Below, piece after piece: positions 1 through 15,228 of a DNA stretch of 33,415 nucleotides. This stretch comes from a virus (Duplodnaviria; Heunggongvirae; Uroviricota; Caudoviricetes). The position numbers and the translations under genes were made by a program. Positions within the stretch are counted from its first letter, which is position 1. The number at the start of each line of letters is the position of its first letter. Below the pieces are notes generated by a model that ran no database searches, was not told the DNA's origin, and was given only the letters and a program-made list of their open reading frames with translations. The stretch lies in the IMG/VR virus record IMGVR_UViG_2563366922_000004; one strand, given 5' to 3'.

Positions 1-3152
<3,152 letters not shown>

Positions 3153-3172
<20 letters not shown>

Positions 3173-4472
3173 TCTCCCGCATATTGCCAGTATGGCCTTT
3201 AATGAGCCGCTGATGCTTGAACCCGCCTATGCGCGGGTTTTCTTTTGTGCGCTTGCAGGCCAGCTTGGGATCAGCCGCCTGACGGATGCGGTATCCGGCG
3301 ACAGCCTGACTGCCGGAGAGGCACCCGCGGCGCTGGCGTTATCCGTTGATGATGACGGACCACGACAGGCCCGCAGTTATCAGGTCATGAACGGCATCGC
3401 CGTGCTGCCGGTGTCCGGCACGCTGGTCAGTCGGACGCGAGCGCTGCAGCCGTATTCGGGGATGACCGGTTACAACGGCATTATCGCCCGTCTGCAACAG
3501 GCTGCCAGCGACCCGATGGTGGACGGCATTCTGCTCGATATGGATACGCCAGGCGGGATGGTGGCAGGGGCATTTGACTGCGCTGACATCATCGCCCGTG
3601 TGCGTGACATAAAGCCGGTATGGGCGCTGGCCAACGACATGAACTGCAGTGCAGGTCAGTTGCTTGCCAGTGCCGCCTCCCGGCGTCTGGTCACGCAGAC
3701 CGCCCGGACAGGCTCCATCGGCGTCATGATGGCTCACAGTAATTACGGTGCTGCGCTGGAGAAACAGGGTGTGGAAATCACGCTGATTTACAGCGGCAGC
3801 CATAAGGTGGATGGCAACCCCTACAGCCATCTTCCGGATGACGTCCGGGAGACACTGCAGTCCCGGATGGACGCAACCCGCCGGATGTTTGCACAGAAGG
3901 TGTCGGCATATACCGGCCTGTCCGTGCAGGCTGTGCTGGATACCGAGGCTGCAGTGTACAGCGGTCAGGAGGCCATTGATGCCGGACTGGCTGATGAACT
4001 TGTTAACAGTACCGATGCGATCACCGTCATGCGTGATGCACTGGATGCACGTAAATCCCGTCTCTCAGGAGGGCGAATGACCAAAGAGACTCAATCAACA
4101 ACTGTTTCAGCCACTGCTTCGCAGGCTGACGTTACTGAGGTGGTGCAAGCGACGGAGGGCGAGAACGCCAGCGCGGCGCAGCCGGACGTGAACGCGCAGA
4201 TCACCGCAGCGGTTGCGGCAGAAAACAGCCGCATTATGGGGATCCTCAACTGTGAGGAGGCTCACGGACGCGAAGAACAGGCACGCGTGCTGGCAGAAAC
4301 CCCCGGTATGACCGTGAAAACGGCCCGCCGCATTCTGGCCGCAGCACCACAGAGTGCACAGGCGCGCAGTGACACTGCGCTGGATCGTCTGATGCAGGGG
4401 GCACCGGCACCGCTGGCTGCAGGTAACCCGGCATCTGATGCCGTTAACGATTTGCTGAACACACCAGTGTAA
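3153..4472 (+). CDS. C: Head maturation protease / minor capsid protein C (439 aa), GTG start
   Basis: ORF track opens at 3039, but lambda C begins MTAELRNLPHIASMAFNEPLMLEP, which corresponds to the in-frame GTG at 3153; length from 3153 is 439 aa as in lambda; overlaps end of B. Confidence 0.88.
3867..4472 (+). CDS. Nu3: Scaffolding protein Nu3, in-frame internal start within the 3' part of C (201 aa)
   Basis: In lambda, Nu3 is the last 606 nt of C in the same frame; there is an in-frame ATG exactly 606 nt before the C stop (MDATRRMFAQKV...). Confidence 0.6.
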   Translation: MDATRRMFAQKVSAYTGLSVQAVLDTEAAVYSGQEAIDAGLADELVNSTDAITVMRDALDARKSRLSGGRMTKETQSTTVSATASQADVTEVVQATEGENASAAQPDVNAQITAAVAAENSRIMGILNCEEAHGREEQARVLAETPGMTVKTARRILAAAPQSAQARSDTALDRLMQGAPAPLAAGNPASDAVNDLLNTPV

Positions 4473-4481
4473 GGGATGTTT

Positions 4482-4814
4482 ATGACGAGCAAAGAAACCT
4501 TTACCCATTACCAGCCGCAGGGCAACAGTGACCCGGCTCATACCGCAACCGCGCCCGGCGGATTGAGTGCGAAAGCGCCTGCAATGACCCCGCTGATGCT
4601 GGACACCTCCAGCCGTAAGCTGGTTGCGTGGGATGGCACCACCGACGGTGCTGCCGTTGGCATTCTTGCGGTTGCTGCTGACCAGACCAGCACCACGCTG
4701 ACGTTCTACAAGTCCGGCACGTTCCGTTATGAGGATGTGCTCTGGCCGGAGGCTGCCAGCGACGAGACGAAAAAACGGACCGCGTTTGCCGGAACGGCAA
4801 TCAGCATCGTTTAA
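4482..4814 (+). CDS. D: Head decoration protein D (110 aa)
   Basis: [27 protein letters not shown]...AISIV matches lambda gpD; ORF track start at 4476 includes 2 extra codons, ATG at 4482 matches lambda. Confidence 0.92.
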
Positions 4815-4834
4815 CTTTACCCTTCATCACTAAA

Positions 4835-4856
4835 GGCCGCCTGTGCGGCTTTTTTT
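4835..4856 (+). terminator. Short GC hairpin (GGCCGC-ctgt-GCGGC) followed by T7 run between D and E
   Basis: Sequence aaaGGCCGCctgtGCGGCttttttt read directly; lies in the D-E intergenic spacer. Confidence 0.4.
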
Positions 4857-4869
4857 ACGGGATTTTTTT

Positions 4870-5145
4870 ATGTCGATGTACACAACCGCCCAACTGCTGG
4901 CGGCAAATGAGCAGAAATTTAAGTTTGATCCGCTGTTTCTGCGTCTCTTTTTCCGTGAGAGCTATCCCTTCACCACGGAGAAAGTCTATCTCTCACAAAT
5001 TCCGGGACTGGTAAACATGGCGCTGTACGTTTCGCCGATTGTTTCCGGTGAGGTTATCCGTTCCCGTGGCGGCTCCACCTCTGAATTTACGCCGGGATAT
5101 GTCAAACCCAAGCACTTAGCATGGCTTTCTGAGGCTTTCGTGTAG
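4870..5145 (+). pseudogene. E: Major capsid protein E, 5' fragment: 82 native codons then 9 insert-derived codons (LAWLSEAFV) and stop
   Basis: MSMYTTAQLLAANEQKFKFDPLFLRLFFRESYPFTTEKVYLSQIPGLVNMALYVSPIVSGEVIRSRGGSTSEFTPGYVKPKH matches lambda E residues 1-82; similarity ends abruptly at 5115/5116. Confidence 0.9.
5107..5115 (+). repeat. Left att core copy CCCAAGCAC (attL side)
   Basis: Matches the right copy CCGAAGCAT at 16152-16160 in 7 of 9 positions; both lie exactly where lambda-E homology ends and resumes. Confidence 0.6.
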
Positions 5146-5227
5146 TTGCTGGTTTTTACACTTAATCTTTTGATAATAAAGAATAAGTTTATCTGGCGCT
5201 TTCACTGAATTTTCCTCGTTATCTGTG

Positions 5228-5263
5228 TGTTGCAATCATCTCTGTATTGCAGCTTGTATTGCT
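5228..5263 (+). promoter_or_regulatory. Cluster of TGT(A/T)TTGCA direct repeats upstream of int; candidate integrase arm-type sites
   Basis: tgttgcaa (5228-5235), tgtattgca (5243-5251), tgtattgct (5255-5263); the same TGTATTGCA motif recurs twice near the other end at 16043-16063. Confidence 0.4.
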
Positions 5264-5277
5264 TTTTGGGGCTAAAA

Positions 5278-6513
5278 ATGGCTGGCGAGAACAAACTGAG
5301 CGACAAAGCGCTTAAAGGATATCTGGGGAAACCCAGAGAAAAGCAGATCACCATTGCTGATGGAAAGGGGCTTTCTATTCGTGTGAGTACTAAAGGGGCT
5401 GTGAGCTTTGTTTTCTTCTACAGGTTAGCAGGTGGCCGGGCTGCTCCGGTCTGGCTAACGTTGGGTAAATATCCTGATATGTCACTCAAACAGGCAAGGG
5501 AAAAGCGCGACGAGTGCCGTGGTTGGTTGGCTGACAAACGTGATCCGCGTATCCAGATTAAGATTCAGGCTGAAGAACGCTTAAAGCCGGTCACAGTGGA
5601 GGATGCACTAAATTACTGGTATGAAAATTACTGTAAGGTGCGTCGTAAAACTCATGCTGTAACGCTTGGCAGATTTCGAAAGCATATCTTTCCCTATATC
5701 GGTCATTTGCCCGTAAATGACACTCACCTATATGAATGGCTGGACTGTTTTGACCGAATTAAACGTAATGCACCAGTTATGGCGGCGTATGTTTTTTCTG
5801 ACACTAAATTAGCTCTTCGTTTTTGTCGGGTACGCCAGTACGCGACGTGTGATGCTTTAAAGGATTTGCGCATGAGTGATGTGGGGCAGATTGCAGGTAA
5901 GCGGGATCGGGTTCTGGATGAAGCCGAACTCGGCCAGCTCTGGAAGGCAATTTTTGTCGAGCCTGATTTAAAACTAATGTCTGAATACACGCGAAAAATG
6001 TTTGTGCTTTGTACAGTATTTGGATGTCGAATGAGTGAAGCCCGATTATCAGAATGGAGCGAATGGGATCTCGAAAGTTGGGTTTGGACTGTACCAAAAG
6101 ATCACTCAAAAACTGGTGTTGAAATCGTCAGACCAGTACCTGAAATTCTACGACAGTGGGTAACGGATGTTCACGAAGAGACAAAACATACTGGTTATGT
6201 GCTGGGAAGTCTGCGAATTAGAGAAAGCGTAAGCAAGATTGGGGGGAAAATCGGTAAACGTTTGGGCCATGAAAAACAATGGTCACTACACGACCTTAGA
6301 AGAACGCTATCTACTCATCTAAGTGATCTCGGTGTTGAATTTTATGTAGTAGAACAACTGTTAGGCCATGCGCTACCTGGCGTGGCAGGTGTTTACAATC
6401 GGAGTAAGTTTATGGCTAAAAAACTGGATGCTCTGGAACTCTGGACTACATATCTCAATAGCATCGCAGGTGCTGATTCAAAAGTGACAATCCTCAAACA
6501 AAAGGCTGGTTAA
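5278..6513 (+). CDS. int: Tyrosine recombinase / integrase (P4-like), probable ATG start at 5278
   Basis: N-terminal arm-binding-like region (GKYPDMSLKQAREKRDE) and C-terminal catalytic motifs (HDLRRT, LLGH, GVYNRS); ORF track opens at GTG 5227 but the homologous N-terminus begins MAGENKLSDKAL. Confidence 0.88.
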   Translation: MAGENKLSDKALKGYLGKPREKQITIADGKGLSIRVSTKGAVSFVFFYRLAGGRAAPVWLTLGKYPDMSLKQAREKRDECRGWLADKRDPRIQIKIQAEERLKPVTVEDALNYWYENYCKVRRKTHAVTLGRFRKHIFPYIGHLPVNDTHLYEWLDCFDRIKRNAPVMAAYVFSDTKLALRFCRVRQYATCDALKDLRMSDVGQIAGKRDRVLDEAELGQLWKAIFVEPDLKLMSEYTRKMFVLCTVFGCRMSEARLSEWSEWDLESWVWTVPKDHSKTGVEIVRPVPEILRQWVTDVHEETKHTGYVLGSLRIRESVSKIGGKIGKRLGHEKQWSLHDLRRTLSTHLSDLGVEFYVVEQLLGHALPGVAGVYNRSKFMAKKLDALELWTTYLNSIAGADSKVTILKQKAG

Positions 6514-6514
6514 C

Positions 6515-6742
6515 ATGAAAAAAATGGCAATTGTTGATAAAAAGGGTCTGGAGTACATTCCTAACATTGATCGTATGATCCGTGAGAAAGAATGTCGGGA
6601 GCTAACCACTCTTGCGAACAGCACACGCTGGAAGCTGGAGAAGGAAGGAAAATTTCCTAAGCGGATCAAGATTGGCGCTACTGCGGTAGCTTACCGTCTC
6701 TCCGAAGTTCAGGCATGGATTAGGGGGGAATGGCGGACATAA
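6515..6742 (+). CDS. alpA: AlpA-family HTH transcriptional regulator / excisionase-like protein (75 aa)
   Basis: Small protein directly after int with an AlpA-like helix-turn-helix region (ATAVAYRLSEVQAWIRGE); typical int-alpA pair of P4-like elements and PICIs. Confidence 0.8.
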   Translation: MKKMAIVDKKGLEYIPNIDRMIREKECRELTTLANSTRWKLEKEGKFPKRIKIGATAVAYRLSEVQAWIRGEWRT

Positions 6743-6778
6743 ATGTTGTAGTAAATTGTTATATAAAAGGGTGTAAGC

Positions 6779-7654
6779 ATGGCTACTCGAAAAAAAAATA
6801 GCGTAGAAATGAAAACTGTTTGTGAACTAATCATATCAAGAGATGATATGAAAGATAAAATTCAAGACAGAATTCAAAAAGGATTATTACTCCTACAGAA
6901 AAGCATAAATAACAATAGTGACTTGGAGCTGTTTAATGCTGATTACAGGAAATGGAGTGATTTTAATGCTGAGCTACTGAAGCGTAGTTTCACAAATGAT
7001 GATTTCAAAGAAGAATATGAAGGTGGGGCATTTGGTGTTATTTCATTGTACGAGACTTCCTTGGGAGAAAAAATCAGTGAGGCTACGCGTAAACTCCAGA
7101 GTAAGATAAGAAAACTAGAGTCGATTATGGAGCGACTGGAGTTAATTCCTATATCTTCCAAAGTTGTTGAAGAAAATATTGAAGTACCTCAGAGTTCAGC
7201 GGTAAAAACCAAAAAGGTATTCATTGTTCATGGAAGAGATGAAATATCAAAAACCAACTTAGAAGTGTTTTTAAGAGAAATTGGCTTAGAACCTATTGTT
7301 CTCCATAGGCAAGCTGATGTAGGTCAGACAGTGATTGAGAAATTTGAAGCAAATAGTGATGTTGGTTTCGCATTCATTCTTCTCACACCTGATGAGATCG
7401 CTTATTTATTGCCGCAAGACTCTTTACCTGATAATGAAAGAGAAAAGGAGTTACGTGCACGACCAAATGTAATGTTTGAATTTGGTTATTTCGTAGGGAA
7501 ATTAGGTCGTTCTAAGGTTTGTTGTCTATACACAGGTGATGTAGTGATTCCAAGTGATTTGAATGGTCTTATTTATAAAAAATTCAATTCTTCTATTGAA
7601 GAAGTAGCATATAGCATTATTAAAGACTTGCGAGCTACTGGTTACGCAGTTTAG
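6779..7654 (+). CDS. Two-domain protein: N-terminal coiled-coil-like region plus C-terminal TIR-like domain; candidate defence effector
   Basis: C-terminal half has the motifs I recall for bacterial TIR-like (COG4271-type) proteins: VFIVHGRD...LLTPDE...RARPNVMFEFGYFVGKLGR; the gene and its flanks are strongly AT-rich compared with neighbours. Confidence 0.55.
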   Translation: MATRKKNSVEMKTVCELIISRDDMKDKIQDRIQKGLLLLQKSINNNSDLELFNADYRKWSDFNAELLKRSFTNDDFKEEYEGGAFGVISLYETSLGEKISEATRKLQSKIRKLESIMERLELIPISSKVVEENIEVPQSSAVKTKKVFIVHGRDEISKTNLEVFLREIGLEPIVLHRQADVGQTVIEKFEANSDVGFAFILLTPDEIAYLLPQDSLPDNEREKELRARPNVMFEFGYFVGKLGRSKVCCLYTGDVVIPSDLNGLIYKKFNSSIEEVAYSIIKDLRATGYAV

Positions 7655-7683
7655 TAAATTCTTTGAACTAAAAATCTGCATAG

Positions 7684-7716
7684 ATATAGAGCCATTCGAG
7701 ATAAATGGCTCTATAT
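7684..7716. terminator. Perfect 13 bp inverted repeat with 7 nt loop between convergent genes; likely bidirectional terminator
   Basis: ATATAGAGCCATT-cgagata-AATGGCTCTATAT read directly; sits between the stop of 6779-7654 (+) and the stop of 7730-7909 (-). Confidence 0.5.
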
Positions 7717-7729
7717 GAAATATTATCTG

Positions 7730-7909
7730 TTAAATTTTGACTTCATATCCGCGTTGCTGTAGTTCTTTGCGAATAATCCTTTTAATCCAGGCTGCTAAAG
7801 ATTCGTCTCCATCTACTTGCTGTGCTTGCTCCATCAACTCCCTCAACTCAGGATCTAACCGAAACTGGAACGGAGGATTACCACGTCTTTGATTTTTGTG
7901 TGTTGACAC
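7730..7909 (-). CDS. Small Arc/MetJ-type ribbon-helix-helix DNA-binding protein (59 aa, GTG start); not in the ORF track
   Basis: Manual minus-strand translation gives (V)STHKNQRRGNPPFQFRLDPELRELMEQAQQVDGDESLAAWIKRIIRKELQQRGYEVKI, with a beta-strand then two helices as in Arc; start codon overlaps palindromes. Confidence 0.5.
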   Translation of the reverse strand: MSTHKNQRRGNPPFQFRLDPELRELMEQAQQVDGDESLAAWIKRIIRKELQQRGYEVKI

Positions 7910-7957
7910 GTCAATTACACCCGATGTAATGTGTTAATGTGTGATGACACATTACAT
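7903..7957. promoter_or_regulatory. Divergent control region: palindrome TTGAC-AC-GTCAA (7903-7914) and 10 bp inverted repeat ATGTAATGTG / CACATTACAT (7924-7933 / 7948-7957); candidate operator and promoter
   Basis: Inverted repeats read directly; TTGACA at 7903-7908 is a plausible -35 for the rightward operon; located between the RHH gene (-) and the 8040 operon (+). Confidence 0.35.
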
Positions 7958-8039
7958 ACGTGTTTAGGAAAATGCAACGCCTCGACGTGCGGGAACACCA
8001 TCGAGGCGTCTAACCAACCCGTTAAATGAGGTAACGATT

Positions 8040-8405
8040 ATGGCTGGAACACAGCATACCCAAACTCACCCTAAATTTATATACACCTTTCTGGCACTAC
8101 ACCACGACCGCATGGCAGATGGAGCAACTACGGTACATGTAGCCGCTGACACGCTGGTTGATGCCCGCAAGATGGTTAAGGAGATGGGCTATACTGCGGC
8201 TTTCTGGAAAGGGCGTGAAGAAAACACGCTGTTTATTCAGAAATGCGAAAACAATTTCATCTGGCGTTTTATCGCCCTGAGCACCGCACAACCGCGCGTG
8301 ATTCACATCGTGGCCACCAGCGAACAGGAAGCACGCCAGCAATCCCCGGCTGGCTGCGTGATGGTATTCGCCGCCCGTATTCGTCAGGGGGTATGCCATG
8401 CCTGA
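8040..8405 (+). CDS. Hypothetical protein; C-terminal part resembles Icd-like (cell-division-inhibitor-like) small proteins of P4-like elements
   Basis: C-terminal segment FIWRFIALSTAQPRVIHIVATSEQEARQQ...VFAARIRQG resembles the Icd-like pattern from memory; GAGG Shine-Dalgarno about 9 nt upstream of ATG 8040; first gene of a + operon. Confidence 0.45.
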   Translation: MAGTQHTQTHPKFIYTFLALHHDRMADGATTVHVAADTLVDARKMVKEMGYTAAFWKGREENTLFIQKCENNFIWRFIALSTAQPRVIHIVATSEQEARQQSPAGCVMVFAARIRQGVCHA

Positions 8406-8718
8406 TATGTCAAATTACCAGTACCTGATTAATCCGCATTTTAACTGTGAGCATGATATTGCTAAAAAGGTTTATTCCGCTGCGGATGGGGCTACTGACA
8501 ATATATCAATGGCTGTTGCGTCAATTGGTAGCCTGATGTGGCATGCGTCAGAAAATGAGGACTATGACGAAAAGGCTATGCGCATTGATATGGGTAATAT
8601 CGGTTTGTTACTGGCAATGCTTGGGCAGTTTGATATTTCGTTACGGTGCACCATTGAAAATGCCACAGATGCATTAAATGCCATAAAGAAAGCGAATACT
8701 GATTCAAATCGGGGATAA
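8398..8718 (+). CDS. Hypothetical protein (106 aa)
   Basis: ORF with ATGCCTGA start/stop overlap with the upstream gene (translational coupling); no recognisable family. Confidence 0.45.
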   Translation: MPDMSNYQYLINPHFNCEHDIAKKVYSAADGATDNISMAVASIGSLMWHASENEDYDEKAMRIDMGNIGLLLAMLGQFDISLRCTIENATDALNAIKKANTDSNRG

Positions 8719-8724
8719 ATAATC

Positions 8725-9024
8725 ATGAGAACATATTTATCTGGCTTGACTGCCAGCGGTTATGCACACCCCAAAATTATCCCCGGCGCTATTTATCTGG
8801 ATAAGAACGGTAACAGAGTAACGGTAAAAGAACTGATGTTTGACCGTGTGTATTTTATTCGTGATGGCTATTCATTTCATAGTTCGCTGAACGTGGAGAT
8901 CTTTATTAGCAGATTCAGGCGGGAAATCCCGCTTTCCAGAAATAACCATGTGTCATGTATGGATGTTGATAAAAAACTACAGGAACTGAAAAACATGATT
9001 GCCGCGTGGAGAGAGCAGAAATGA
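8725..9024 (+). CDS. Hypothetical protein (99 aa)
   Basis: ORF in operon context immediately upstream of the primase gene; no recognisable family. Confidence 0.45.
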   Translation: MRTYLSGLTASGYAHPKIIPGAIYLDKNGNRVTVKELMFDRVYFIRDGYSFHSSLNVEIFISRFRREIPLSRNNHVSCMDVDKKLQELKNMIAAWREQK

Positions 9025-10838
9025 AAAAAGCGCCAAATTTAAAACACCAGCCGCGTGACAAAATGACGGAAGTCATCATTTTTGCGGGTAGTGATGCGTG
9101 GGCACATGCGAAACAGTGGCAGGAACAGGACGGGCGACTGGCTGGCGATAACGTGCCACCTGTCTGGCTTGGAGAGCAACAACTTGCCGAACTGGACAAC
9201 CTGCAAATCGTACCGGACGGACGCTATCGCGTGCGTCTCTATCAGGCGGGGTTATTGCGTCCGGGGCTTGTTAATACCATCGGGCAGAAACTGGCAGTGG
9301 CAGGTGTCAGGGATGCTGATTATTACCCTGAAGGAATGCACAGCCAGAAACGGGAGAACTGGCGCGAATATCTGGAACGTGAACGGGCAGAGCAGGCGGA
9401 AAAGAAAAAGGTAGTTGAACTGCCTGTAAAGAAAAAAGAGCGGGTAAAAGACGATAACGCTTCATCACTGGCGCTTAACCAGATGGGAGCAAGTCAACGC
9501 GGCGAAGTTCTCCTGGCACATTATGGCGGTGAACTGGCGATTCATGCTGACTCTGACACTGTTCACCATTACAACGGCGTTGTATGGGAGCCAGTACAGG
9601 ATAAAGAATTACAGCGAGCTATGGCACAGATTTTCATTGATGCGGAGATCAGCTATTCGCAGAACGCCATTAAATCGGCGGTCGATACCATGAAGTTAAG
9701 TTTGCCTGTAATGGGGAATACAGCCCGTAACCTGATTGGATTCAGTAACGGGGTATTTGATACCAGAACAGGTAATTTTCGGGAGCATAACAAAAACGAC
9801 TGGTTGTTAATTGCCAGTGAATTACCTTTCAGCCCACCAGCAGAGGGGGAAACGCTGGCAACACATGCGCCGAATTTCTGGAAGTGGTTACGCCGTTCGG
9901 TGGCTGAGAATGACCGCAAGGCGGATCGCGTACTGGCTGCATTATTCATGGTGCTGGCGAACCGGTACGACTGGCAGTTATTCATTGAGGTAACAGGTCC
10001 AGGGGGAAGTGGTAAAAGCGTGATGGCGGAGATTTGCACCATGCTGGCGGGTAAGGCCAACACAGTATCGGCAAGCATGAAGGCGCTGGAAGATGCAAGG
10101 GAACGCGCGTTAGTGGTTGGCTTTTCGCTGATTATCATGCCGGATATGACCCGCTACGCTGGTGATGGGGCAGGGATTAAGGCTATTACAGGCGGTGACA
10201 AGGTGGCAATTGACCCGAAACACAAAGCCCCCTACTCAACGCGTATTCCGGCAGTAGTGCTGGCGGTTAACAATAACGCCATGTCATTCAGTGACCGCAG
10301 CGGGGGGATCTCACGTCGTCGGGTGATATTCAATTTTTCGGAAGTTGTACCGGAGAACGAACGCGATCCAATGCTGGCGGAAAAAATAGAAGGTGAGTTG
10401 GCGGTAGTGATTCGCCATCTGCTTACACGGTTTGCTGACCAGGACGAAGCCAGACGCCTGTTATATGAGCAGCAGAAATCTGAAGAAGCACTGGCGATAA
10501 AGCGAGAGGGGGATTCGCTGGTGGACTTCTGCGGCTATCTCATGGCGTCGGTAATGTGTGATGGCCTGTTAGTGGGTAATGCTGAAATTGTGCCATTCAG
10601 CCCACGCAGGTATCTCTATCATGCCTATCTGGCTTATATGAGGGCACATGGGTTTGGTAAACCTGTAACACTGACGCGCTTCGGTAAAGATATGCCGGGG
10701 GCAATGGCGGAATATGGCAGGGAGTATATGAAACGGAAAACGAAGCACGGTTTGCGTTCAAACGTGACACTGACGGAGGAATCAGAAGACTGGATGCCAT
10801 CATGTGTATCGGTCACTAATGACGATAGCAAAAATTAA
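9006..10838 (+). CDS. Replication protein: primase / SF3-type helicase (P4-family), start 9006 or 9021
   Basis: Walker A motif VTGPGGSGKS and Walker B-like SLIIMPD; 610 aa; immediately followed by an iteron array. Confidence 0.82.
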   Translation: MERAEMKKAPNLKHQPRDKMTEVIIFAGSDAWAHAKQWQEQDGRLAGDNVPPVWLGEQQLAELDNLQIVPDGRYRVRLYQAGLLRPGLVNTIGQKLAVAGVRDADYYPEGMHSQKRENWREYLERERAEQAEKKKVVELPVKKKERVKDDNASSLALNQMGASQRGEVLLAHYGGELAIHADSDTVHHYNGVVWEPVQDKELQRAMAQIFIDAEISYSQNAIKSAVDTMKLSLPVMGNTARNLIGFSNGVFDTRTGNFREHNKNDWLLIASELPFSPPAEGETLATHAPNFWKWLRRSVAENDRKADRVLAALFMVLANRYDWQLFIEVTGPGGSGKSVMAEICTMLAGKANTVSASMKALEDARERALVVGFSLIIMPDMTRYAGDGAGIKAITGGDKVAIDPKHKAPYSTRIPAVVLAVNNNAMSFSDRSGGISRRRVIFNFSEVVPENERDPMLAEKIEGELAVVIRHLLTRFADQDEARRLLYEQQKSEEALAIKREGDSLVDFCGYLMASVMCDGLLVGNAEIVPFSPRRYLYHAYLAYMRAHGFGKPVTLTRFGKDMPGAMAEYGREYMKRKTKHGLRSNVTLTEESEDWMPSCVSVTNDDSKN

Positions 10839-10850
10839 ACTTATGGAATA

Positions 10851-11075
10851 ACTGTTCACCACTGTTCACCCTGTCATAAATATCTTTTATATCAGTATAT
10901 TATAGGGTGAACAGTTATTTATGAACTGTTCACCAAACTATTCACTGTTCACCTTTTTGATTGTTTATTGAGCTTCAAGGGTGAACAGTGGTGAACAGTT
11001 GGTGAATAGTTTTTGTGAAACTGTTCACCCCTTAACATTATGAATTAAAAGAGAAAATATCAAAAGGTGAACAGG
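10851..11075. repeat. Iteron-type replication origin: about 10 copies of CTGTTCACC / GGTGAACAG in both orientations with an AT-rich centre
   Basis: Copies read directly at about 10852, 10862, 10906, 10926, 10945, 10979, 10990, 11000 (variant GGTGAATAG), 11021 and 11066; directly downstream of the primase gene. Confidence 0.7.
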
Positions 11076-11125
11076 TGAAGGGTTAAAACGCAAAAATTTT
11101 AATTTACTGCTGTGAGATAAAGCCT

Positions 11126-11371
11126 ATGACAGCGAAGCACACAAAAAAATCACAATCGCACGCCCTTGATTTGACGGAACACTGGTTAAGGGTGTCGATA
11201 AAAATCATTGACCGCAACGCCGGGGAAGGATATGCGAAAGCACATCCCGAACTGATTAGCGCATTCATGACAACGGCAGCTGCAAACTTTGCCACGCTGA
11301 CAGAACGGGAGATTGCCGAAGCGGAACAGGTGACAACCATCAACGTTAAAACCGGAGAGCAGACAGCATGA
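11126..11371 (+). CDS. Hypothetical protein (81 aa)
   Basis: ORF whose stop overlaps the start of the downstream SSB-like gene (ATGA); no recognisable family. Confidence 0.35.
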   Translation: MTAKHTKKSQSHALDLTEHWLRVSIKIIDRNAGEGYAKAHPELISAFMTTAAANFATLTEREIAEAEQVTTINVKTGEQTA

Positions 11372-11790
11372 CAGCACAGATAGCGGCTTACGGACGGCTG
11401 GTGGCTGACCCGCAGTTAAAGACCACCAGCAAGGGTACACAAATGACGATGGCGAGTATGGCGGTCCCCCTTCCGTGCAGCCAGGCAGATGACGGAACGG
11501 CGCCGATGTGGTTATCCGTCCTGGCGTTTGGCAGACAGGCCGACGCACTGGCAAAACACCACAAAGGCGAACTGGTGAGCGTGGCGGGTAACATGCAGGT
11601 AAGCCAGTGGACAGGCCAGAACGGCGAAACGCGGCAGGGCTGGCAGGTTATCGCAGACAGTGTAATCAGTGCCAGAACGGCGCGACCGGGCGGCAAAAAA
11701 GGTCAACAGGGCCAGGCTACTGACGCACTGAACAGGGCAAAACAACAGTCGGGGAATGATGATCCGTACGGCGATAATATACCGTTTTAA
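11368..11790 (+). CDS. ssb: Single-stranded DNA-binding protein (SSB-like, 140 aa)
   Basis: OB-fold-like N-terminal region and acidic C-terminal tail ending DDPYGDNIPF, resembling the E. coli SSB tail DFDDDIPF. Confidence 0.65.
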   Translation: MTAQIAAYGRLVADPQLKTTSKGTQMTMASMAVPLPCSQADDGTAPMWLSVLAFGRQADALAKHHKGELVSVAGNMQVSQWTGQNGETRQGWQVIADSVISARTARPGGKKGQQGQATDALNRAKQQSGNDDPYGDNIPF

Positions 11791-11807
11791 ATTCTGCAAA
11801 TAAAAAA

Positions 11808-11836
11808 ATGCCGGAAGAAAATAGATTTTCCGGCAT
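11808..11836. other. 9 bp stem hairpin (ATGCCGGAA...TTCCGGCAT) preceded by an A7 run; possible terminator after ssb
   Basis: Inverted repeat read directly. Confidence 0.3.
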
Positions 11837-12001
11837 GCTACATAAATCCCGACCAAAGGAAGTAAATACATTAACACGAATTATCAGCACTGAAGTTGTC
11901 ACGGCATATTTTATACAACATTGCACTTGGTTGCATGTATTCGCATAGCAGACATCGGTAATAGAATATATTCACAATTATTTGTAATGAATGTAAAGAG
12001 G

Positions 12002-13048
12002 ATGAGTATGGTTGATTTATATTCGCCTACACAGCTTGTGCAGGTGGCTAATGCTGAAGATGTGCAAAAAAAATTAAATGCGTTGTTTACCAGTTTGTTT
12101 TTCACTCGCTCGGTAATGTTTGAATCGAGAGACATTATTCTTGATACGATCGACGATCCAAATATCCCGATCGCGGCGTTTTGCTCTCCTATGGTGGGCA
12201 GTAAAGTTTCACGAGATGAGGGATACGAATCAAAAACAATTCGCCCTGGCTATATGAAACCGAAAAGCAGCATTGATCCAAATAAGTTAGCTGTGCGCCC
12301 TGCTGGTGTGTCACCTGAGCAATACAATGCTTTTGGGGCGCGTAATATTAAAGTTAAACAGGCGATTGTAAATCAGGCTAAAGCTATTCGTACACGTATT
12401 GAATGGCTTGCTGTTCAGGCAATCACAACGGGGAAAAATATCATTGAGGGCGATGGTATTGAACGTTATGAGCTGGACTGGAATATAAAACCACAAAATA
12501 TCATCACTCAGTCTGGCGGTACTGAGTGGTCAGGTAAGGATAAAGAAACTTTTGATCCAAATGATGATATTGAGAGCTACGCAGAATTTAGTGAGGGCGT
12601 CACTAATATCATCATTATGGGCGGTAATGTATGGAAGAAATACCGTTCATTCAGAGCGATAAAAGAGGCTCTGGATACCCGTCGTGGTTCTAATTCCGAA
12701 CTGGAAACGGCCCTTAAAGACCTTGGTGATTCGGTGAGTTTTAAAGGGTATATGGGCGATGTTGCGATTGTTGTTTACAGCGGGCGTTATACCGACGAGG
12801 ACGGAACTGAAAAACATTTCCTTGATCCTGATTTGATGGTGCTTGGCAATACGGCTCTTCAGGGGATTGTCGCTTATGGCGGTATTCAGGATCCGGAGCT
12901 AATCCGGATGGGGCTGACTAAAGCCGAACTTGCACCGAAAAACTATATTGTGCCTGGTGATCCGGCTATTGAATATGTGCAGACACATTCAGCACCACAG
13001 CCAATACCGGCCCGTATCAATCGTTTTGTTACCGTTCGCATTGGCTAA
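12002..13048 (+). CDS. Insert-encoded major capsid protein, diverged homolog of lambda gpE (about 349 aa)
   Basis: MSMVDLYSPTQLVQVANAEDV... aligns along its length with lambda E (shared motifs ITQSGGTEWS, LDTRRGSNSELETA, GDVAIVVYSG) but is clearly diverged; start chosen by analogy with lambda E (MSM...), ORF track opens at 11921. Confidence 0.85.
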   Translation: MSMVDLYSPTQLVQVANAEDVQKKLNALFTSLFFTRSVMFESRDIILDTIDDPNIPIAAFCSPMVGSKVSRDEGYESKTIRPGYMKPKSSIDPNKLAVRPAGVSPEQYNAFGARNIKVKQAIVNQAKAIRTRIEWLAVQAITTGKNIIEGDGIERYELDWNIKPQNIITQSGGTEWSGKDKETFDPNDDIESYAEFSEGVTNIIIMGGNVWKKYRSFRAIKEALDTRRGSNSELETALKDLGDSVSFKGYMGDVAIVVYSGRYTDEDGTEKHFLDPDLMVLGNTALQGIVAYGGIQDPELIRMGLTKAELAPKNYIVPGDPAIEYVQTHSAPQPIPARINRFVTVRIG

Positions 13049-13058
13049 GGGGGGAGCA

Positions 13059-13400
13059 ATGGCTACTCATTACACTGAACTCATGGCTGGCACTGAAGCA
13101 CTGGTTACTACGCTGGGGATATTTTCAGCTAATAAAGGGGTAATTCCTGCATTTACGCCACTGATGCAGGAAGATACAACAGGTGCACTGGTGGTATGGG
13201 ATGGTACGAGTGCAGGTAAAGCTGTTTATGTTTCCGCTGTACAACTCGATACAGCGAAAAAAACACAGGCTCAGGTCTATAAGACAGGTGTCTTAAATGT
13301 TGATGCTCTTAACTGGCCTGAGTCAGTAAAAGAACTGTCAGTAAAGGTTGCAGCGTTTGTTGGCTCAGGTATTTCTGTTCAGCCGCTGGCTCGTGTGTAA
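13059..13400 (+). CDS. Insert-encoded head decoration protein, diverged homolog of lambda gpD (113 aa)
   Basis: MATHYTELMAGTEALVTT...ALVVWDGTSAGKAV...YKTGVLN parallels lambda D ([13 protein letters not shown]...YKSGTF); start ATG 13059 preceded by GGGGAG. Confidence 0.78.
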   Translation: MATHYTELMAGTEALVTTLGIFSANKGVIPAFTPLMQEDTTGALVVWDGTSAGKAVYVSAVQLDTAKKTQAQVYKTGVLNVDALNWPESVKELSVKVAAFVGSGISVQPLARV

Positions 13401-13411
13401 AGGGGGATACA

Positions 13412-13795
13412 ATGCAGAATCATTACAATGACCTTAAGCCAATTGCCGAAATGATGTATCCGGATCCAGCAGTAGAGGAATTAAAGGCTATTGCTGACAA
13501 AATGCGTTTAAGCGAGCGTCTTGTTGATATGAATCAGGTGATGGAACTTACAACCCTGAGTCGTCGTACACTGCTAAACCTTGAAGCACGTGGAGAGTTC
13601 CCCGAACGCGTGCAGGTTACGGAAGGGCGTAAGGCCTGGTATTTAAGCGAAGTGATCGACTGGATAAACAATATTCCGCGCGCTTCTGAATATTGCCGCG
13701 TACCTGTCCCAAAAAAGCCAGATGCGGCGCTATGCCTCAAGATTGATCGTGTACGCCGCAATGCACGGGATGGTCGCTATAAGCTGATTGGTTGA
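13412..13795 (+). CDS. HTH protein (AlpA/MerR-like winged helix region), immediately upstream of cos; possible packaging accessory or late regulator
   Basis: Central segment MELTTLSRRTLLNLEARGEFPERVQVTEGRKAWYLSEVIDWINN resembles AlpA-type HTH; function not assignable from sequence. Confidence 0.45.
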   Translation: MQNHYNDLKPIAEMMYPDPAVEELKAIADKMRLSERLVDMNQVMELTTLSRRTLLNLEARGEFPERVQVTEGRKAWYLSEVIDWINNIPRASEYCRVPVPKKPDAALCLKIDRVRRNARDGRYKLIG

Positions 13796-13839
13796 TGAAA
13801 TTAGGGCCCGTTCTGGCTGGCGGGTCCTTTCCGGCGATC

Positions 13840-13890
13840 CGGCAGGTTACGGGGCGTCAGGCGCGCGGGTTTTCGCTATTTATGAGCATT
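13840..13890. promoter_or_regulatory. cos site of the insert (cosN-like): GTTACG-GGGCGTCAGGCG-CGCGGGTTTTCGCTATTTATGA
   Basis: Flanking bases match my recollection of lambda cosN (GTTACG / CGCGGGTTTTCGCTATTTATGA) while the 12 nt between them (13852-13863) differs from lambda's GGGCGGCGACCT; lies just upstream of a Nu1-like gene, as in lambda. Confidence 0.6.
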
Positions 13891-14011
13891 TTAAGGGGAC
13901 TGGTGGTGGTTTTGTTGTTCGCTATATCTGTATGAATAATAAGAGAAAAATACAATCAATACACCAACCTGAAACAGTAATTAAGTTGTGGTATCAATGA
14001 AATTACACCTG

Positions 14012-14539
14012 ATGAACAAAAAAAACATGGCAAAAAGTTGCCGTGTAAGCGCCACTGCGTTCGATAAGTGGGGAGTGATTCCCGTCGAGCGTAAGGGCCG
14101 TGAGGCGTTCTATGATGTTGCCAGTGTAATAGATAATCGGGTTAACAATGCAATCAGCCAGATTACAAACGAAACGGGCGATATTGATGACGATGAACTT
14201 TTACGCGTCAGGATCAGATTACTGACAGCACAGGCAGAGGCGCAGGAGCTTAAAAACGAGCGCGAACGCGGCGACGTTATTGATACAGAGTTTTGTATGT
14301 ATGTTCTTTCCAAACTGGCGAGTCAGATTTCATCTATCATGGACAGCCTGCCGCTTACCATGCAAAGGCGCTTCCCACAGATGACTCCGGCTATGCTGGA
14401 TGGACTTAAAAAGGAAGTGGCTAAAGCCTGTAATGCCAGTGCCGGCGTTGCTGACAACCTCCCACAGATACTGGCTGATTATCTGATGGAAAGTACAGGA
14501 AACGTACCGGATAAGTTGCAGCTGAATAAGGATAAGTAA
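14012..14539 (+). CDS. Terminase small subunit, Nu1-like, with divergent N-terminal DNA-binding region (start 14012, or 13997/14027)
   Basis: C-terminal two-thirds parallels lambda Nu1 (RLLTAQAEAQELKN...TEFCMYVLSKLASQISSIMDSLPLTMQRRFP vs lambda RLTRAQADAQELKN...TAFCTFVLSRIAGEIASILDGLPLSVQRRFP); N-terminus differs. Confidence 0.78.
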   Translation: MNKKNMAKSCRVSATAFDKWGVIPVERKGREAFYDVASVIDNRVNNAISQITNETGDIDDDELLRVRIRLLTAQAEAQELKNERERGDVIDTEFCMYVLSKLASQISSIMDSLPLTMQRRFPQMTPAMLDGLKKEVAKACNASAGVADNLPQILADYLMESTGNVPDKLQLNKDK

Positions 14540-14550
14540 CGTAGTACGCT

Positions 14551-14826
14551 ATGACTGAATCCGAACTACTGAAAGTAATCTGCCATGCTGGTGGAGTCAG
14601 CCACCAGCATGACGAACAGACCACGCAGCCGGGCAGTGTCACCGCTGAAAATTACGCTCGTGTGGTTGCTGAGGTTATGTGGCGTGACGGTATAGAACTG
14701 AACGGACAGGATTGCTTAGTCATCCGCACCAAAGTGCTGGCTATACTGGCAGCTAGGCGGAGGCAGGGACAACGCCAGAACGTTGCATCGTACCAGTGGA
14801 AGAAGCCTGACAGACTGCGGCGATAA
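14551..14826 (+). CDS. Hypothetical protein (91 aa)
   Basis: ORF directly downstream of the small terminase gene; no recognisable family. Confidence 0.4.
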   Translation: MTESELLKVICHAGGVSHQHDEQTTQPGSVTAENYARVVAEVMWRDGIELNGQDCLVIRTKVLAILAARRRQGQRQNVASYQWKKPDRLRR

Positions 14827-15122
14827 CTCTTTGATTTTCTCGACGGCCCCAAAATGGGCCTTACCATAGCCAGCTAATAAATGAGCAAGCCTCAAAAGTG
14901 AGGTTTGTGGCCGTTTGGCCTATTCATATGCTAACTCGTTGATATTCCTGACGACGCAAATTTACGCCTTGTGGCTGGTAGTCGAATTGCAAATTTGCAA
15001 CTCAACTATGAAACTACAGGTAGTTTGGGTAGTAAAAGCAACACACTGATTTTGGGGCTTCTTCGCGATACCTAATATTATGGTATCGGTGGAAGAGATA
15101 TCGTTTCTCATAGGTTAGCACC

Positions 15123-15142
15123 GAGGGCGGAGTTCCGCCCTC
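15123..15142. other. Perfect inverted repeat GAGGGCGGA-gt-TCCGCCCTC in the ORF-free spacer downstream of the HEPN gene
   Basis: Read directly; no clear U-run on either strand, so terminator function is uncertain. Confidence 0.3.
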
Positions 15143-15228
15143 ATCGAAAAATTGCTTACGAGTCGTCAAAATAAATTAATCGACTGAGTATAATGATTAA
15201 CTAATTGCTCGTGTTACTTCATTATACG

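What the first reader, a model, noticed from the sequence alone, without database searches (positions are those of the whole stretch)
7730..8040. Unannotated small RHH gene overlapping nested palindromes: candidate master switch of the insert
A 59-aa Arc-like ribbon-helix-helix protein, absent from the ORF track because it is under 60 aa and starts at GTG, is encoded divergently from the icd-like/primase operon. Its start codon lies inside the palindrome TTGACACGTCAA, and a 10 bp inverted repeat with 14 bp spacer (ATGTAATGTG / CACATTACAT) lies just beyond. This looks like an autoregulated repressor-operator pair controlling the replication operon, analogous to the Stl/SIS region of PICIs where helper-encoded inducers act.
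Basis: partly seen in the sequence, partly recalled or inferred. Interest (0 to 1): 0.55.

Follow-up and report, generated by a model that had tools for sequence, protein, structure and literature searches.

The report
Satellite repressor gene plus antisense RNA
The small gene is real and probably encodes a DNA-binding repressor that, with a previously unremarked small antisense RNA next to it, keeps the replication genes of a phage-parasitic island switched off; this pair is conserved in many enterobacterial islands, including the laboratory model, where no repressor has yet been identified.

Summary
A 59-aa GTG-start ORF lies at 7730-7909 (-), divergent from the icd-like/primase operon, with the quoted repeats beside it. 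RefSeq already annotates it, as hypothetical or YlcI/YnfO.

The window is a lambdoid prophage whose capsid gene is split by a helper-embedded PICI satellite.

The ORF is under purifying selection, is widespread in Enterobacterales, Orbaceae and Pasteurellaceae, and models as a ribbon-helix-helix fold.

Comparison of about 87 loci redraws the control region:
- TTGACACGTCAA is only a 5-2-5 repeat and is not conserved. Its TTGACA half is the -35 of the predicted replication-operon promoter and overlaps RHH codons 1-2.
- The 10-bp repeat is the outer pair of four TGTAAT half-sites that overlap both predicted promoters.
- RHH subclasses with different beta-strands carry different repeats at the same positions.

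It has a conserved -10, an anti-Shine-Dalgarno loop and an intrinsic terminator, with strong covariation. It is antisense to the icd-like start and always sits directly upstream of the RHH gene, also in EcCICFT073.

Best reading: dual RHH plus antisense-RNA repression, like P22 immI or plasmid copy control. Nothing has been tested experimentally. The Stl analogy and a helper-encoded inducer are unsupported.

The parts
7730..7909 (-). 59-aa ribbon-helix-helix protein gene, GTG start at 7909-7907 and TAA stop at 7732-7730. Predicted beta-strand residues about 13-19 (PFQFRLD), helices 20-33 and 38-53.
7918..7922 (-). Shine-Dalgarno-like GGGTG, 8 nt upstream of the GTG start.
   Evidence: Read from the sequence. 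Homologues carry GGGTG, GAGTG or GAGGTG at the same place.
7903..7908 (+). Predicted -35 (TTGACA, 6/6) of the replication-operon promoter P_rep. It is the complement of RHH codons 1-2 (GTG TCA A).
   Evidence: TTGACA at this position in 77 of 87 non-redundant loci of all RHH classes. Synonymous divergence of RHH codons 2-5 is 0.15, against 0.72-0.87 elsewhere.
7925..7932 (+). Predicted -10 of P_rep: TGTAAT (7925-7930, 16-nt spacer) or TAATGT (7927-7932, 18-nt spacer). Inferred start about 7937.
   Evidence: A TAnnnT hexamer lies 16-18 nt after the -35 in 80 of 87 loci. The tool's own scan missed it because it requires A at position 2 or a spacer of 18 or less with 9/12 matches.
7914..7930 (.). 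Proximal operator candidate: ATTACA (7914-7919), N5, TGTAAT (7925-7930). It lies over the P_rep spacer and -10 and over the RHH Shine-Dalgarno.
   Evidence: TGTAAT copies at 7914, 7925 and 7951. The 6-N5-6 repeat is perfect in 19 and has one mismatch in 11 of 46 class A regions. The class consensus shows it.
7940..7956 (.). Distal operator candidate: TGTGATG (7940-7946), N3, CATTACA (7950-7956). It lies over the P_RHH -10 and both inferred transcription starts.
   Evidence: Class A consensus is TGTAATG-tgt-CATTACA, with 0-2 mismatches in 35 of 46 regions. Other RHH classes carry a different palindrome at the same position.
7924..7957 (.). It is the outer pair of the four half-sites.
7949..7977 (-). 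Predicted RHH promoter P_RHH: -35 TTGCAT (7977 to 7972), 17-nt spacer, -10 TAATGT (7954 to 7949). Inferred start about 7942.
   Evidence: The best-scoring promoter sits at the same offset (-68/-45 from the start codon) in most loci of all classes, as TTGnnn-17-TAnnnT.
7970..8045 (-). Candidate cis-antisense small RNA, about 76 nt. 5' helix AGCCA/UUGGU. Stem-loop 1 (8036 to 8020) has anti-Shine-Dalgarno CCUC (8031 to 8028) in its loop. Terminator hairpin (8009 to 7977) is followed by UGCAUUUU. It is fully complementary to the ribosome-binding site (GAGG 8028-8031) and ATG (8040) of the icd-like gene.
   Evidence: Alignment A2. RNAalifold. 94.4% of cells paired against 35-48% for slid controls, 13 pairs with double changes, 0 of 500 shuffles. 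164 G.U against 15 A.C cells, so the - strand is the folding strand. MFE -32.1 kcal/mol, z = -4.75. Covariance model hit at window 7967-8045 (-), 88.7 bits.
8053..8058 (-). Predicted -10 (TATGCT) of the antisense-RNA promoter, inside codons 5-7 of the icd-like gene. Weak -35 TATAAA at 8081 to 8076.
   Evidence: A TAnnnT hexamer lies exactly 7 nt upstream of the AGCCAT anchor in 58 of 59 non-redundant loci. There are 11 different hexamers, across unrelated N-terminal peptides.
8040..8405 (+). First gene of the controlled operon (icd-like, 121 aa). It is followed by a hypothetical gene (8398-8718), DUF4222 (8725-9024) and the primase (9006-10838).
7684..7716 (.). Perfect 13-nt hairpin between the convergent TIR cargo gene (6779-7654, +) and the RHH gene. 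It is a possible weak bidirectional terminator.
   Evidence: There is no adjacent T-run, and the terminator scan did not report it.

Best explanation
The region is the negative-control module at the head of the replication operon of a phage-inducible chromosomal island (PICI). The island is embedded in the capsid gene of its lambdoid helper prophage. The module has two parts on the - strand, always adjacent and in the same order: a ~76-nt antisense RNA and a 59-aa ribbon-helix-helix (RHH) protein.

Inferred mechanism:
(a) RHH dimers bind the TGTAAT-type repeats at 7914-7930 and 7940-7956.
(b) The proximal site covers the spacer and -10 of the rightward promoter P_rep (-35 at 7903-7908), so binding blocks transcription of icd-like through primase.
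(c) The distal site covers the -10 and start of the RHH promoter, giving autoregulation.
(d) The two promoters face each other with starts a few bases apart, so they are also mutually exclusive for RNA polymerase.
(e) The antisense RNA starts at about 8045 from a promoter inside the icd-like coding start and ends at the terminator at 8009-7977, whose U-tail contains the -35 of P_RHH. It pairs with the leader of any escaping P_rep transcript. Its loop presents CCUC to the Shine-Dalgarno sequence, which would block translation of the first gene and probably trigger cleavage of the duplex.
(f) Induction would override this from outside. Candidates are AlpA-dependent transcription or, in this helper-embedded copy, antiterminated helper late transcription entering from int-alpA. 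Such transcription runs antisense through the RHH gene and sense through the operon.

What is shown: gene reality and purifying selection, an RHH-type fold, the position and conservation of the three promoter-like elements, class-specific repeats, RNA covariation and strandedness, and strict linkage of the RNA and the RHH gene.

What is inferred: expression of the protein and the RNA, DNA binding, repression, and the induction route.
For: Context:
- RefSeq annotation of an identical copy shows the island layout: int, alpA, TIR cargo, RHH (-), icd-like, DUF4222, primase, SSB, capsid, decoration, terS and Abi, sitting between two halves of a prophage major capsid gene. This matches published helper-embedded PICIs (PMC10111431).
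- The layout int > alpA > (cargo) < RHH | > icd-like ... primase recurs in most of 80 loci from other species and in EcCICFT073.

Protein:
- 113 homologues of about 59 aa with an invariant core.
- pN/pS about 0.13.
- The AF2 model has an extended segment plus two helices.
- PHROG 228 'Arc-like repressor', E=1.6e-5.
- It aligns in register with Arc and Mnt.

Promoters and operators.
- Class B RHHs have (G/T)GTAATTAC(C/A) twice, at -42 and -10.
- Class C RHHs have TGTCA/GTGTC repeats.
- EcCICFT073 has AGGTGTGGCCCAC twice.

RNA.
- The covariance model finds exactly one copy, on the RHH strand and directly upstream of every intact RHH gene.
- This includes loci not used to build the model. There were no other hits in 774 kb.
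Against: - There are no expression or binding data of any kind.
- P_RHH and the antisense promoter have weak -35 elements (3/6 in the window). The window's terminator U-tract is interrupted (UGCAUUUU).
- In class A the half-sites coincide with -10-like hexamers. The inverted repeat could therefore reflect two similar opposing promoters rather than operators.
- The class-versus-repeat association rests on few independent lineages.
- Published work on EcCICFT073, which carries the same module type, found that AlpA overexpression alone induces replication. That work did not need to invoke a repressor (PMC6092414).
Confidence: 0.55

Rival explanations
1. The repeats are only promoter elements and RNA structure, not RHH operators. 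The RHH protein regulates something else, such as helper phage genes, alpA or the cargo genes, or it acts as an activator as Mnt does at its own promoter.
For: TTGACACGTCAA is explained by the -35 plus coding sequence. Two of the four TGTAAT half-sites coincide with predicted -10 hexamers of opposing promoters. The helper prophage encodes a distant homologue (28% identity), so cross-talk with phage sites is conceivable.
Against: In class B loci the palindromes (GGTAATTACC) are separate from the -10 and -35 hexamers. They still sit at the same two positions, one in the P_rep spacer and one just after the P_RHH -10. The repeats differ between RHH beta-strand classes, while the promoter hexamers stay of the same type.
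Confidence: 0.17
2. The structured element at 7970-8045 is not a separate antisense RNA. It is a transcribed leader or attenuator of the RHH mRNA, which would then start at about 8045, or a structure in the 5' UTR of the replication-operon mRNA.
For: P_RHH is weak by consensus (6/12 in the window). The element and the RHH gene are always adjacent and co-oriented. The + strand leader also folds, with z = -2.0.
Against: A GC-rich 12-bp hairpin with a U-tract is a terminator signature on the - strand only. The G.U against A.C asymmetry (164 against 15) favours the - strand. A TTGnnn-17-TAnnnT promoter is conserved downstream of the terminator. Read-through would in any case still produce the short RNA as the main product.
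Confidence: 0.15
3. The RHH protein is an antitoxin of a toxin-antitoxin pair, or an orphan antitoxin. One candidate partner is the neighbouring TIR-domain cargo protein.
Against: The RHH gene has no co-directional partner gene in the window. The TIR gene is convergent and is absent from almost all other loci that carry the RHH gene. The conserved neighbours are the antisense RNA and the replication operon.
Confidence: 0.04
4. The module is an Stl-like sensor. The RHH protein is a master repressor that is directly inactivated by a helper-phage protein.
For: The position is equivalent: a small divergent regulator at the head of the replication module. PICI biology in Gram-positive cocci works this way (PMC6092414).
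Against: 59 residues leave no room for a ligand- or protein-sensing domain beyond the RHH fold. The gene's orientation relative to int is opposite to that of stl. In Gram-negative PICIs, helper phages raise alpA transcription and AlpA alone suffices for induction (PMC6092414). Nothing in the sequence bears on an anti-repressor.
Confidence: 0.07

Closest known systems
Phage P22 immunity I region (mnt, Pmnt/Pant, arc, sar antisense RNA, ant)
   Same: Small ribbon-helix-helix repressors combine with a small cis-antisense RNA to silence one operon (PMC2629481). From background knowledge, the repressor gene mnt is divergent from the controlled operon, the promoters overlap, and the antisense RNA covers the ribosome-binding site of the controlled gene.
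   Different: There is no detectable sequence homology beyond the motif: pairwise hhalign E = 0.013 and 0.0017 with low probability, and no Pfam Arc hit. Rfam gave no sar hit at E up to 10. There is one repressor here, not two. The controlled genes are icd-like plus a replication module, not an antirepressor. The antisense RNA targets the first gene of the operon, and its terminator is fused to the repressor's promoter.
Plasmid copy-number control by an RHH repressor plus a countertranscript (pMV158 CopG + RNAII; R1 CopB + CopA). From background knowledge.
   Same: A replication-initiation operon is held down at two levels: a small RHH transcriptional repressor, and a short structured antisense RNA with an intrinsic terminator that targets the translation start region.
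   Different: CopG is co-transcribed with rep, whereas here the RHH gene is divergent. The replicon is an integrated satellite whose replication must be off, not set to a copy number. No sequence similarity was found. A plasmid antisense RNA family (R1162-like, RF00043) matched only at E = 8.7.
SaPI/PICI master repressor Stl (Rpr) of Gram-positive cocci
   Same: A regulator gene lies at the divergent junction in front of the island's replication module. Its proposed role is keeping the island quiescent (PMC6092414).
   Different: Stl is transcribed in the same direction as int and is inactivated by binding a specific helper protein (PMC6092414). From background knowledge it is a large helix-turn-helix protein. 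This protein is a 59-aa RHH, convergent with int-alpA and paired with an antisense RNA. No inducer is known.
P4 CI / P1 C4 / IsrK immunity RNAs reported in some Gram-negative PICI 'Bro zones' (PMC10111431)
   Same: A small RNA is used as an immunity or repression element in satellites and in front of icd-type genes.
   Different: From background knowledge, those RNAs are processed from the sense transcript and act on nearby sites. Rfam C4 and isrK models gave no hit here at E up to 10. The RNA proposed here is a true cis-antisense transcript with its own promoter and terminator.
SymR/SymE-type cis-antisense control (Rfam RF01809)
   Same: An RNA of about 77 nt is transcribed from a promoter inside the 5' end of the target gene and covers its ribosome-binding site. 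This was the best Rfam match.
   Different: The match is not significant: 24.1 bits against a gathering score of 61, E = 0.55. It reflects similar architecture, not homology.

Membership tests
Ribbon-helix-helix (Arc/MetJ/CopG-type) DNA-binding proteins | Beta-strand, helix, helix fold of about 45 residues | tested here: met
Ribbon-helix-helix (Arc/MetJ/CopG-type) DNA-binding proteins | Conserved glycine-containing turn between the two helices, and alternating polar residues on the N-terminal strand | tested here: met
   G34 and D35 are invariant, as are P13, F14, Q15, F16, R17 and L18, in 29 diverse homologues. The protein aligns in register with the Arc and Mnt strand and turn.
Ribbon-helix-helix (Arc/MetJ/CopG-type) DNA-binding proteins | Match to a curated RHH sequence family | tested here: not met
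   No Pfam RHH, Arc or CopG hit at E up to 1. No PDB sequence hit. The only hit is PHROG 228 'Arc-like repressor', E = 1.6e-5.
Ribbon-helix-helix (Arc/MetJ/CopG-type) DNA-binding proteins | Dimerises through an antiparallel beta-sheet and binds repeated operator half-sites | not testable with these tools
   Only indirect evidence: class-specific repeats at two fixed positions.
YlcI/YnfO family (NCBIfam NF041551) | Score at or above the curated cut-off of the family model | tested here: not met
   18.8 bits against a cut-off of 30. Some RefSeq records nevertheless carry that name for the identical protein. It is 28% identical to the helper prophage's YlcI/YnfO protein.
P22 immI-type control region | Small RHH repressor gene divergent from the controlled operon, with overlapping promoters | tested here: inconclusive
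   The divergent arrangement is shown. The promoters are consensus predictions conserved across loci and have not been mapped.
P22 immI-type control region | Short cis-antisense RNA over the ribosome-binding site of the controlled gene | tested here: inconclusive
   Structure, strand, -10 element and terminator are supported by covariation and conservation. Transcription has not been shown.
P22 immI-type control region | Controlled gene is an antirepressor (ant); homology to arc, mnt or sar | tested here: not met
   The operon encodes icd-like, DUF4222 and primase proteins. There is no sar hit in Rfam. Similarity to Arc and Mnt is only weak.
Stl/Rpr master repressors of Gram-positive PICIs | Transcribed in the same direction as int, and inactivated by binding a specific helper phage protein (PMC6092414); a large helix-turn-helix protein with room for a helper-binding domain (background knowledge) | tested here: not met
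   The protein is a 59-aa RHH with no further domain. It is on the opposite strand to int-alpA.
Stl/Rpr master repressors of Gram-positive PICIs | De-repression by direct binding of a helper phage protein | not testable with these tools
   No data. For Gram-negative PICIs the literature implicates AlpA (PMC6092414).
Type II toxin-antitoxin RHH antitoxins (VapB, MazE, HicB-C) | Cognate toxin gene in the same operon | tested here: not met
   There is no co-directional neighbour in the window. The neighbours in other loci are not conserved. The VapB model scores 19 bits against a cut-off of 60.
C4 / IsrK / P4 CI immunity RNAs | Match to the Rfam covariance models | tested here: not met
   No hit at E up to 10 in 5000-16500.
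Gram-negative PICI / helper-embedded PICI (context of the finding) | int and alpA, a replication zone with primase, a late zone, and insertion in a lambdoid late gene co-oriented with it | tested here: met
   compared with PMC10111431.

The most novel reading that the evidence does not exclude
The antisense-RNA plus RHH cassette is the missing maintenance (immunity) switch of Gram-negative PICIs. On this reading it keeps the island's replication module silent. Its interchangeable RHH and operator classes define immunity groups among co-resident islands. It is flipped by transcription entering from the int-alpA side, either AlpA-driven or, in helper-embedded islands, antiterminated helper late transcription. 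That transcription would shut off the RHH gene and the antisense promoter by interference while expressing the operon. The RNA would be a new, widespread RNA family absent from Rfam.
Probability: 0.33. Interest if true: 0.72.

Novelty: new member of a known kind. Interest (0 to 1): 0.55.

Why it matters
[quoted passage not shown] How the primase operon stays silent in the resident state is therefore open.

This analysis points to a concrete two-component candidate that is present in the experimental model EcCICFT073 (NC_004431 about 1,380,473-1,380,851). The question can be tested at once with existing strains and reporters.

The analysis also identifies a structured small RNA with strong covariation. 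A sequence similar to it occurs in about 8% of complete E. coli genomes and in many other genera, and it is not annotated as RNA in any record examined.

If the RHH classes define immunity groups, that would explain the mosaic swapping seen at this position and the tandem modules in some islands.

If the module proves inert, the finding reduces to an ordinary small autoregulator of unknown target.

Tried and rejected
- TTGACACGTCAA as an operator: rejected. It is a 5-2-5 repeat, kept in 17 of 46 relatives, and is explained by the -35 plus codons 1-2.
- C4, IsrK or CI-type immunity RNA upstream of the icd-like gene, as in P1 or P4: no Rfam hit.
- The symR and R1162 antisense Rfam hits are below any sensible threshold and were used only as a lead.
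- Curated family membership: Pfam found nothing for the RHH protein. PDB sequence search found nothing.
- Toxin-antitoxin reading: no partner gene.
- The tool's promoter and terminator scan found only one weak + strand promoter (ATGACA-18-GAAAAT, 7944-7973) and no terminator. The comparative analysis supersedes it. The - strand terminator has a 15-nt apparent loop and an interrupted T-run in this copy, which explains why the scan missed it.
- Literature searches for an RHH protein or an antisense RNA in PICIs returned nothing relevant. 'YlcI/YnfO' appears only as an annotation label in a gene table.
- The first attempt to locate EcCICFT073 fetched a neighbouring lambdoid prophage. The island was found in the next stretch.
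- A search for att direct repeats flanking the island gave only a 10-mer and was not pursued.
- RHH loci without PICI genes were examined, with L028 (Klebsiella spallanzanii) as the example. They are stranded fragments of about 1 kb between chromosomal genes, and some have a broken start or an early stop. They say nothing against the model.
Full report
CONTEXT

The window is a lambdoid prophage. It carries portal, protease and decoration genes at 94-4814 and tail genes from about 16.9 kb onward. Its major capsid gene is cut in two: the N-terminal part lies at about 4870-5115 and the C-terminal part at 16164-16940.

An ~11-kb satellite sits between the two halves. Its genes, in order, are:
- integrase, 5227-6513
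- AlpA, 6515-6742
- a CAP12/Pycsar-type TIR cargo gene, 6779-7654
- the small ORF under study, 7730-7909 on the - strand
- an icd-like gene, 8040-8405
- a hypothetical gene, DUF4222 and a D5/P4 primase, running to 10838
- then SSB, its own capsid and decoration genes, an HTH gene, terS and an Abi gene
.

This is the 'helper-embedded PICI' configuration at the cap_E site described by Tommasini, Mageeney and Williams (PMC10111431).

THE OBSERVATION

Three corrections apply.
- The ORF is annotated in RefSeq as WP_024190704.1, either 'hypothetical' or 'YlcI/YnfO family'.
- The inverted repeat has 11-nt arms (7924-7934 and 7947-7957) with a 12-nt spacer. It is one of only 14 such repeats in 33 kb.
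- TTGACACGTCAA is not a perfect palindrome. It is TTGAC-AC-GTCAA, a 5-2-5 repeat of a kind expected many times by chance.

THE PROTEIN

A database search found 113 clusters. Almost all are 55-71 aa and 61-100% identical. They come from Escherichia, Klebsiella, Enterobacter, Pantoea, Serratia, Yersinia, Proteus, Xenorhabdus, Edwardsiella and Mannheimia, and none has a Pfam domain.

The core RRGNPPFQFRLDPELR..ME.AQ..DGDESLAAWIKRIIRKEL is nearly invariant. Among 43 distinct coding sequences, pN is about 0.11 and pS about 0.80, so the gene is translated and constrained.

The AlphaFold model has mean pLDDT 79. It shows an extended segment at residues 13-19 followed by helices at 20-33 and 38-53.

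Sequence-level family evidence is weak:
- PHROG 228 'Arc-like repressor', E = 1.6e-5.
- NCBIfam YlcI_YnfO_N is below its cut-off.
- Pfam finds nothing, and PDB sequence search finds nothing.
- The protein aligns in register with Arc (PQFNLRWP) and Mnt (PHFNFRMP).

I accept 'RHH fold' and treat 'Arc family member' as unproven.

CONSERVED NEIGHBOURHOOD

I examined six diverged E. coli copies and 80 loci from other species. In most of them the arrangement is int > alpA > (variable cargo) < RHH | > icd-like or other small genes ... DUF4222 > primase/helicase.

The model island EcCICFT073 has the same layout. At the same place it carries a different 59-aa RHH-like protein annotated YlcI/YnfO.

The RHH gene is almost absent from phage records: 1 of 50,697, and that record is a 15-kb Pasteurella element. 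A Citrobacter/Klebsiella subgroup carries only a stranded remnant of about 1 kb between chromosomal genes, some copies with a damaged start.

THE CONTROL REGION, READ COMPARATIVELY

(1) Rightward promoter P_rep. The complement of RHH codons 1-2, (A/G)TG TCA A, is TTGACA in 77 of 87 non-redundant loci of all RHH classes. A TAnnnT hexamer follows 16-18 nt later in 80 of 87.
- In the window these are 7903-7908, and TGTAAT at 7925-7930 or TAATGT at 7927-7932.
- This explains two things. The disordered N-terminus M/V-S-T is conserved, and synonymous divergence of codons 2-5 is 0.15 against 0.72-0.87 elsewhere.
The other half varies (TTGAC, TTAAC, TTTAG, TTAAG ...), and the 5+5 arms survive in only 17 of 46 class A regions.

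(2) Leftward promoter P_RHH. The best promoter-like site in most loci is TTGnnn-17-TAnnnT, at -68/-45 from the start codon. In the window the -35 is 7977 to 7972 and the -10 is 7954 to 7949.

The inferred starts, about 7937 (+) and about 7942 (-), make the two promoters face each other and overlap.

(3) Repeats. Class A proteins (beta-strand ..PPFQFRL) have four TGTAAT-type half-sites.
- In the window these are ATTACA 7914-7919, TGTAAT 7925-7930, TGTGAT(G) 7940-7946 and (C)ATTACA 7950-7956.
- They form a proximal 6-N5-6 repeat and a distal 7-N3-7 repeat.
- TGTAAT occurs 2.35 times per 68-nt control region, against 0.03 in the flanks.

Other classes carry different repeats at the same positions.
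- Class B (..[YF]Q[MI]RL) has (G/T)GTAATTAC(C/A) twice. One copy lies in the P_rep spacer abutting the ATG, and one lies just after the P_RHH -10.
- Class C (..IA[LF]RV) has TGTCA/GTGTC-type repeats.
- EcCICFT073 has AGGTGTGGCCCAC twice.

Different repeats at the same positions, matched to different beta-strands, is what is expected of cognate operators. It is not proof. In class A the half-sites overlap -10-like hexamers, so part of the symmetry may come from two similar opposing promoters.

Upstream of P_RHH, on the RHH strand, every class shares the following elements in order:
- a TAnnnT hexamer, then exactly 7 nt, then AGCCAT, which is the complement of the ATG of the first operon gene
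- a 5-6-bp stem whose 7-nt loop contains CCUC, the complement of the Shine-Dalgarno sequence
- GGUUAGA
- a GC-rich hairpin of about 12 bp
- a U-run whose first bases are the -35 of P_RHH
.

The hexamer is present at the fixed distance in 58 of 59 non-redundant loci, in 11 sequence variants. It lies inside coding sequence for unrelated N-terminal peptides. That pattern argues for a -10 element rather than a coding constraint.

Structure was tested on a 51-sequence alignment.
- RNAalifold recovers the terminator, with 10 covarying pairs.
- For the full named structure, 94.4% of cells pair, against 35-48% when partners are slid by 1-3 columns.
- Thirteen of 23 pairs show changes on both sides, and none of 500 shuffles reaches any of the five measures.
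- There are 164 G.U cells but only 15 A.C cells. The structure therefore holds on the - strand (94.4%) far better than on the + strand (81.4%).

The window's copy (8045 to 7966) folds into exactly this structure, at -32.1 kcal/mol with z = -4.75.

A covariance model built from the alignment finds one copy directly upstream of, and co-oriented with, every intact RHH gene.
- This includes loci not used to build the model, EcCICFT073 (L089 18772-18852, -) and two phage-borne remnants.
- There were no other hits in 774 kb.

Related sequence is found by blastn in 415 of 5426 complete E. coli genomes and is never annotated as RNA. Rfam has no family for it. The best hit, symR, scores 24 bits against a gathering score of 61. 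There is no C4, isrK or sar hit.

MECHANISM PROPOSED

The model is two-level repression of the replication operon.
- RHH binds the two repeat sets. Binding at the proximal set occludes P_rep, and binding at the distal set gives autoregulation of P_RHH.
- The antisense RNA pairs with the leader of any P_rep transcript across the Shine-Dalgarno sequence and the ATG.
- Induction would come from outside the module.

Published work shows that helper phages raise alpA transcription and that AlpA alone triggers EcCICFT073 excision and replication (PMC6092414). In this helper-embedded copy, helper late transcription enters from the int side (PMC10111431). Such transcription runs antisense through the RHH gene and sense through the antisense promoter, so it could flip the switch by interference. 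This last step is speculation.

COMPARISON WITH KNOWN SYSTEMS

Functionally the closest is P22 immI: the Mnt and Arc RHH repressors plus sar antisense RNA controlling ant (PMC2629481). Plasmid copy control of the CopG + RNAII and CopB + CopA type is the other close parallel, from background knowledge. Membership in any of these families is not supported by sequence. The Stl analogy fails on protein type, orientation and the absence of any sensor domain.

NOVELTY AND SCORE

An RHH autoregulator and a cis-antisense RNA are both familiar kinds of element. What is new is their identification as a fixed pair at the head of the Gram-negative PICI replication module. I found no description of either in the literature searched. 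The founding paper says that whether a repressor exists is unclear.

I rate the finding as a new member of a known kind, with interest 0.55. The main value is that a standing question becomes directly testable in EcCICFT073.

Noticed in passing
window 7970-8045 (- strand), with promoter -10 at 8053-8058: A conserved, covarying ~76-nt antisense RNA lies against the start of the icd-like gene. It is absent from Rfam and from RefSeq annotation. It became part of the main explanation.
   Followed up: yes
window 10861-11035: A cluster of direct and inverted copies of GGTGAACAGT/ACTGTTCACC lies just downstream of the primase gene (which ends at 10838). It looks like the island's iteron-type origin of replication.
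   Followed up: no
window 4870-5115 and 16164-16940: The helper prophage's lambda-E-type major capsid gene is split by the satellite at about codon 80-90. The satellite carries its own capsid (about 12008-13048) and decoration genes. This matches the published cap_E helper-embedded PICI group. No clear att direct repeat was found; the longest shared word is 10 nt.
   Followed up: partly
window 6779-7654 (+) and 15229-15990 (-): There are two likely anti-phage cargo genes in the satellite. One is a CAP12/Pycsar-type TIR-domain protein (Pfam PF10137, E = 1.2e-33) between alpA and the RHH gene. The other is an 'abortive infection family protein' at the far end.
   Followed up: no
L003 (NZ_CP027584) 3995-5057: One island carries two antisense-RNA plus RHH modules in tandem. 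The first is a class A RHH at 3995-4174 with an RNA hit at 4232-4311. The second is a YlcI/YnfO-type RHH at 4680-4859 with an RNA hit at 4980-5057. L033, L039, L050 and L053 have two RHH paralogues in tandem.
   Followed up: partly
L002 (plasmid NZ_CP117003) 3982-4297: A copy of the RHH gene plus antisense RNA sits on a 95-kb plasmid. It lies next to an IS3 fragment and directly upstream of a WYL-domain gene and a BREX system. This suggests the cassette can be captured as a regulatory module for other cargo.
   Followed up: no
L090 (phage mEp460_ev081) 3340-3580; L091 (Morganella phage IME1369_01) 2963-3041: Two true phages carry the antisense-RNA element followed by a truncated remnant of the RHH C-terminus (..WIKELVRTELKTKGITPKG). 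The remnant is fused upstream of a 449-aa moron gene, a recombination scar that shows exchange between satellites and phages.
   Followed up: partly
L001 2689-2883 (helper prophage, outside the window): The helper prophage encodes its own YlcI/YnfO protein, between the lysis genes and the terminase. It is 28% identical to the satellite RHH and also begins MST-KN. Cross-talk is possible and untested.
   Followed up: partly
window 8040-8085 and homologous loci: The N-terminal peptide of the first operon gene (MA.TQHTQTRPKF) is conserved at the nucleotide level across distant genera, even where the rest of the protein differs. Overlap with the antisense promoter probably explains this.
   Followed up: partly
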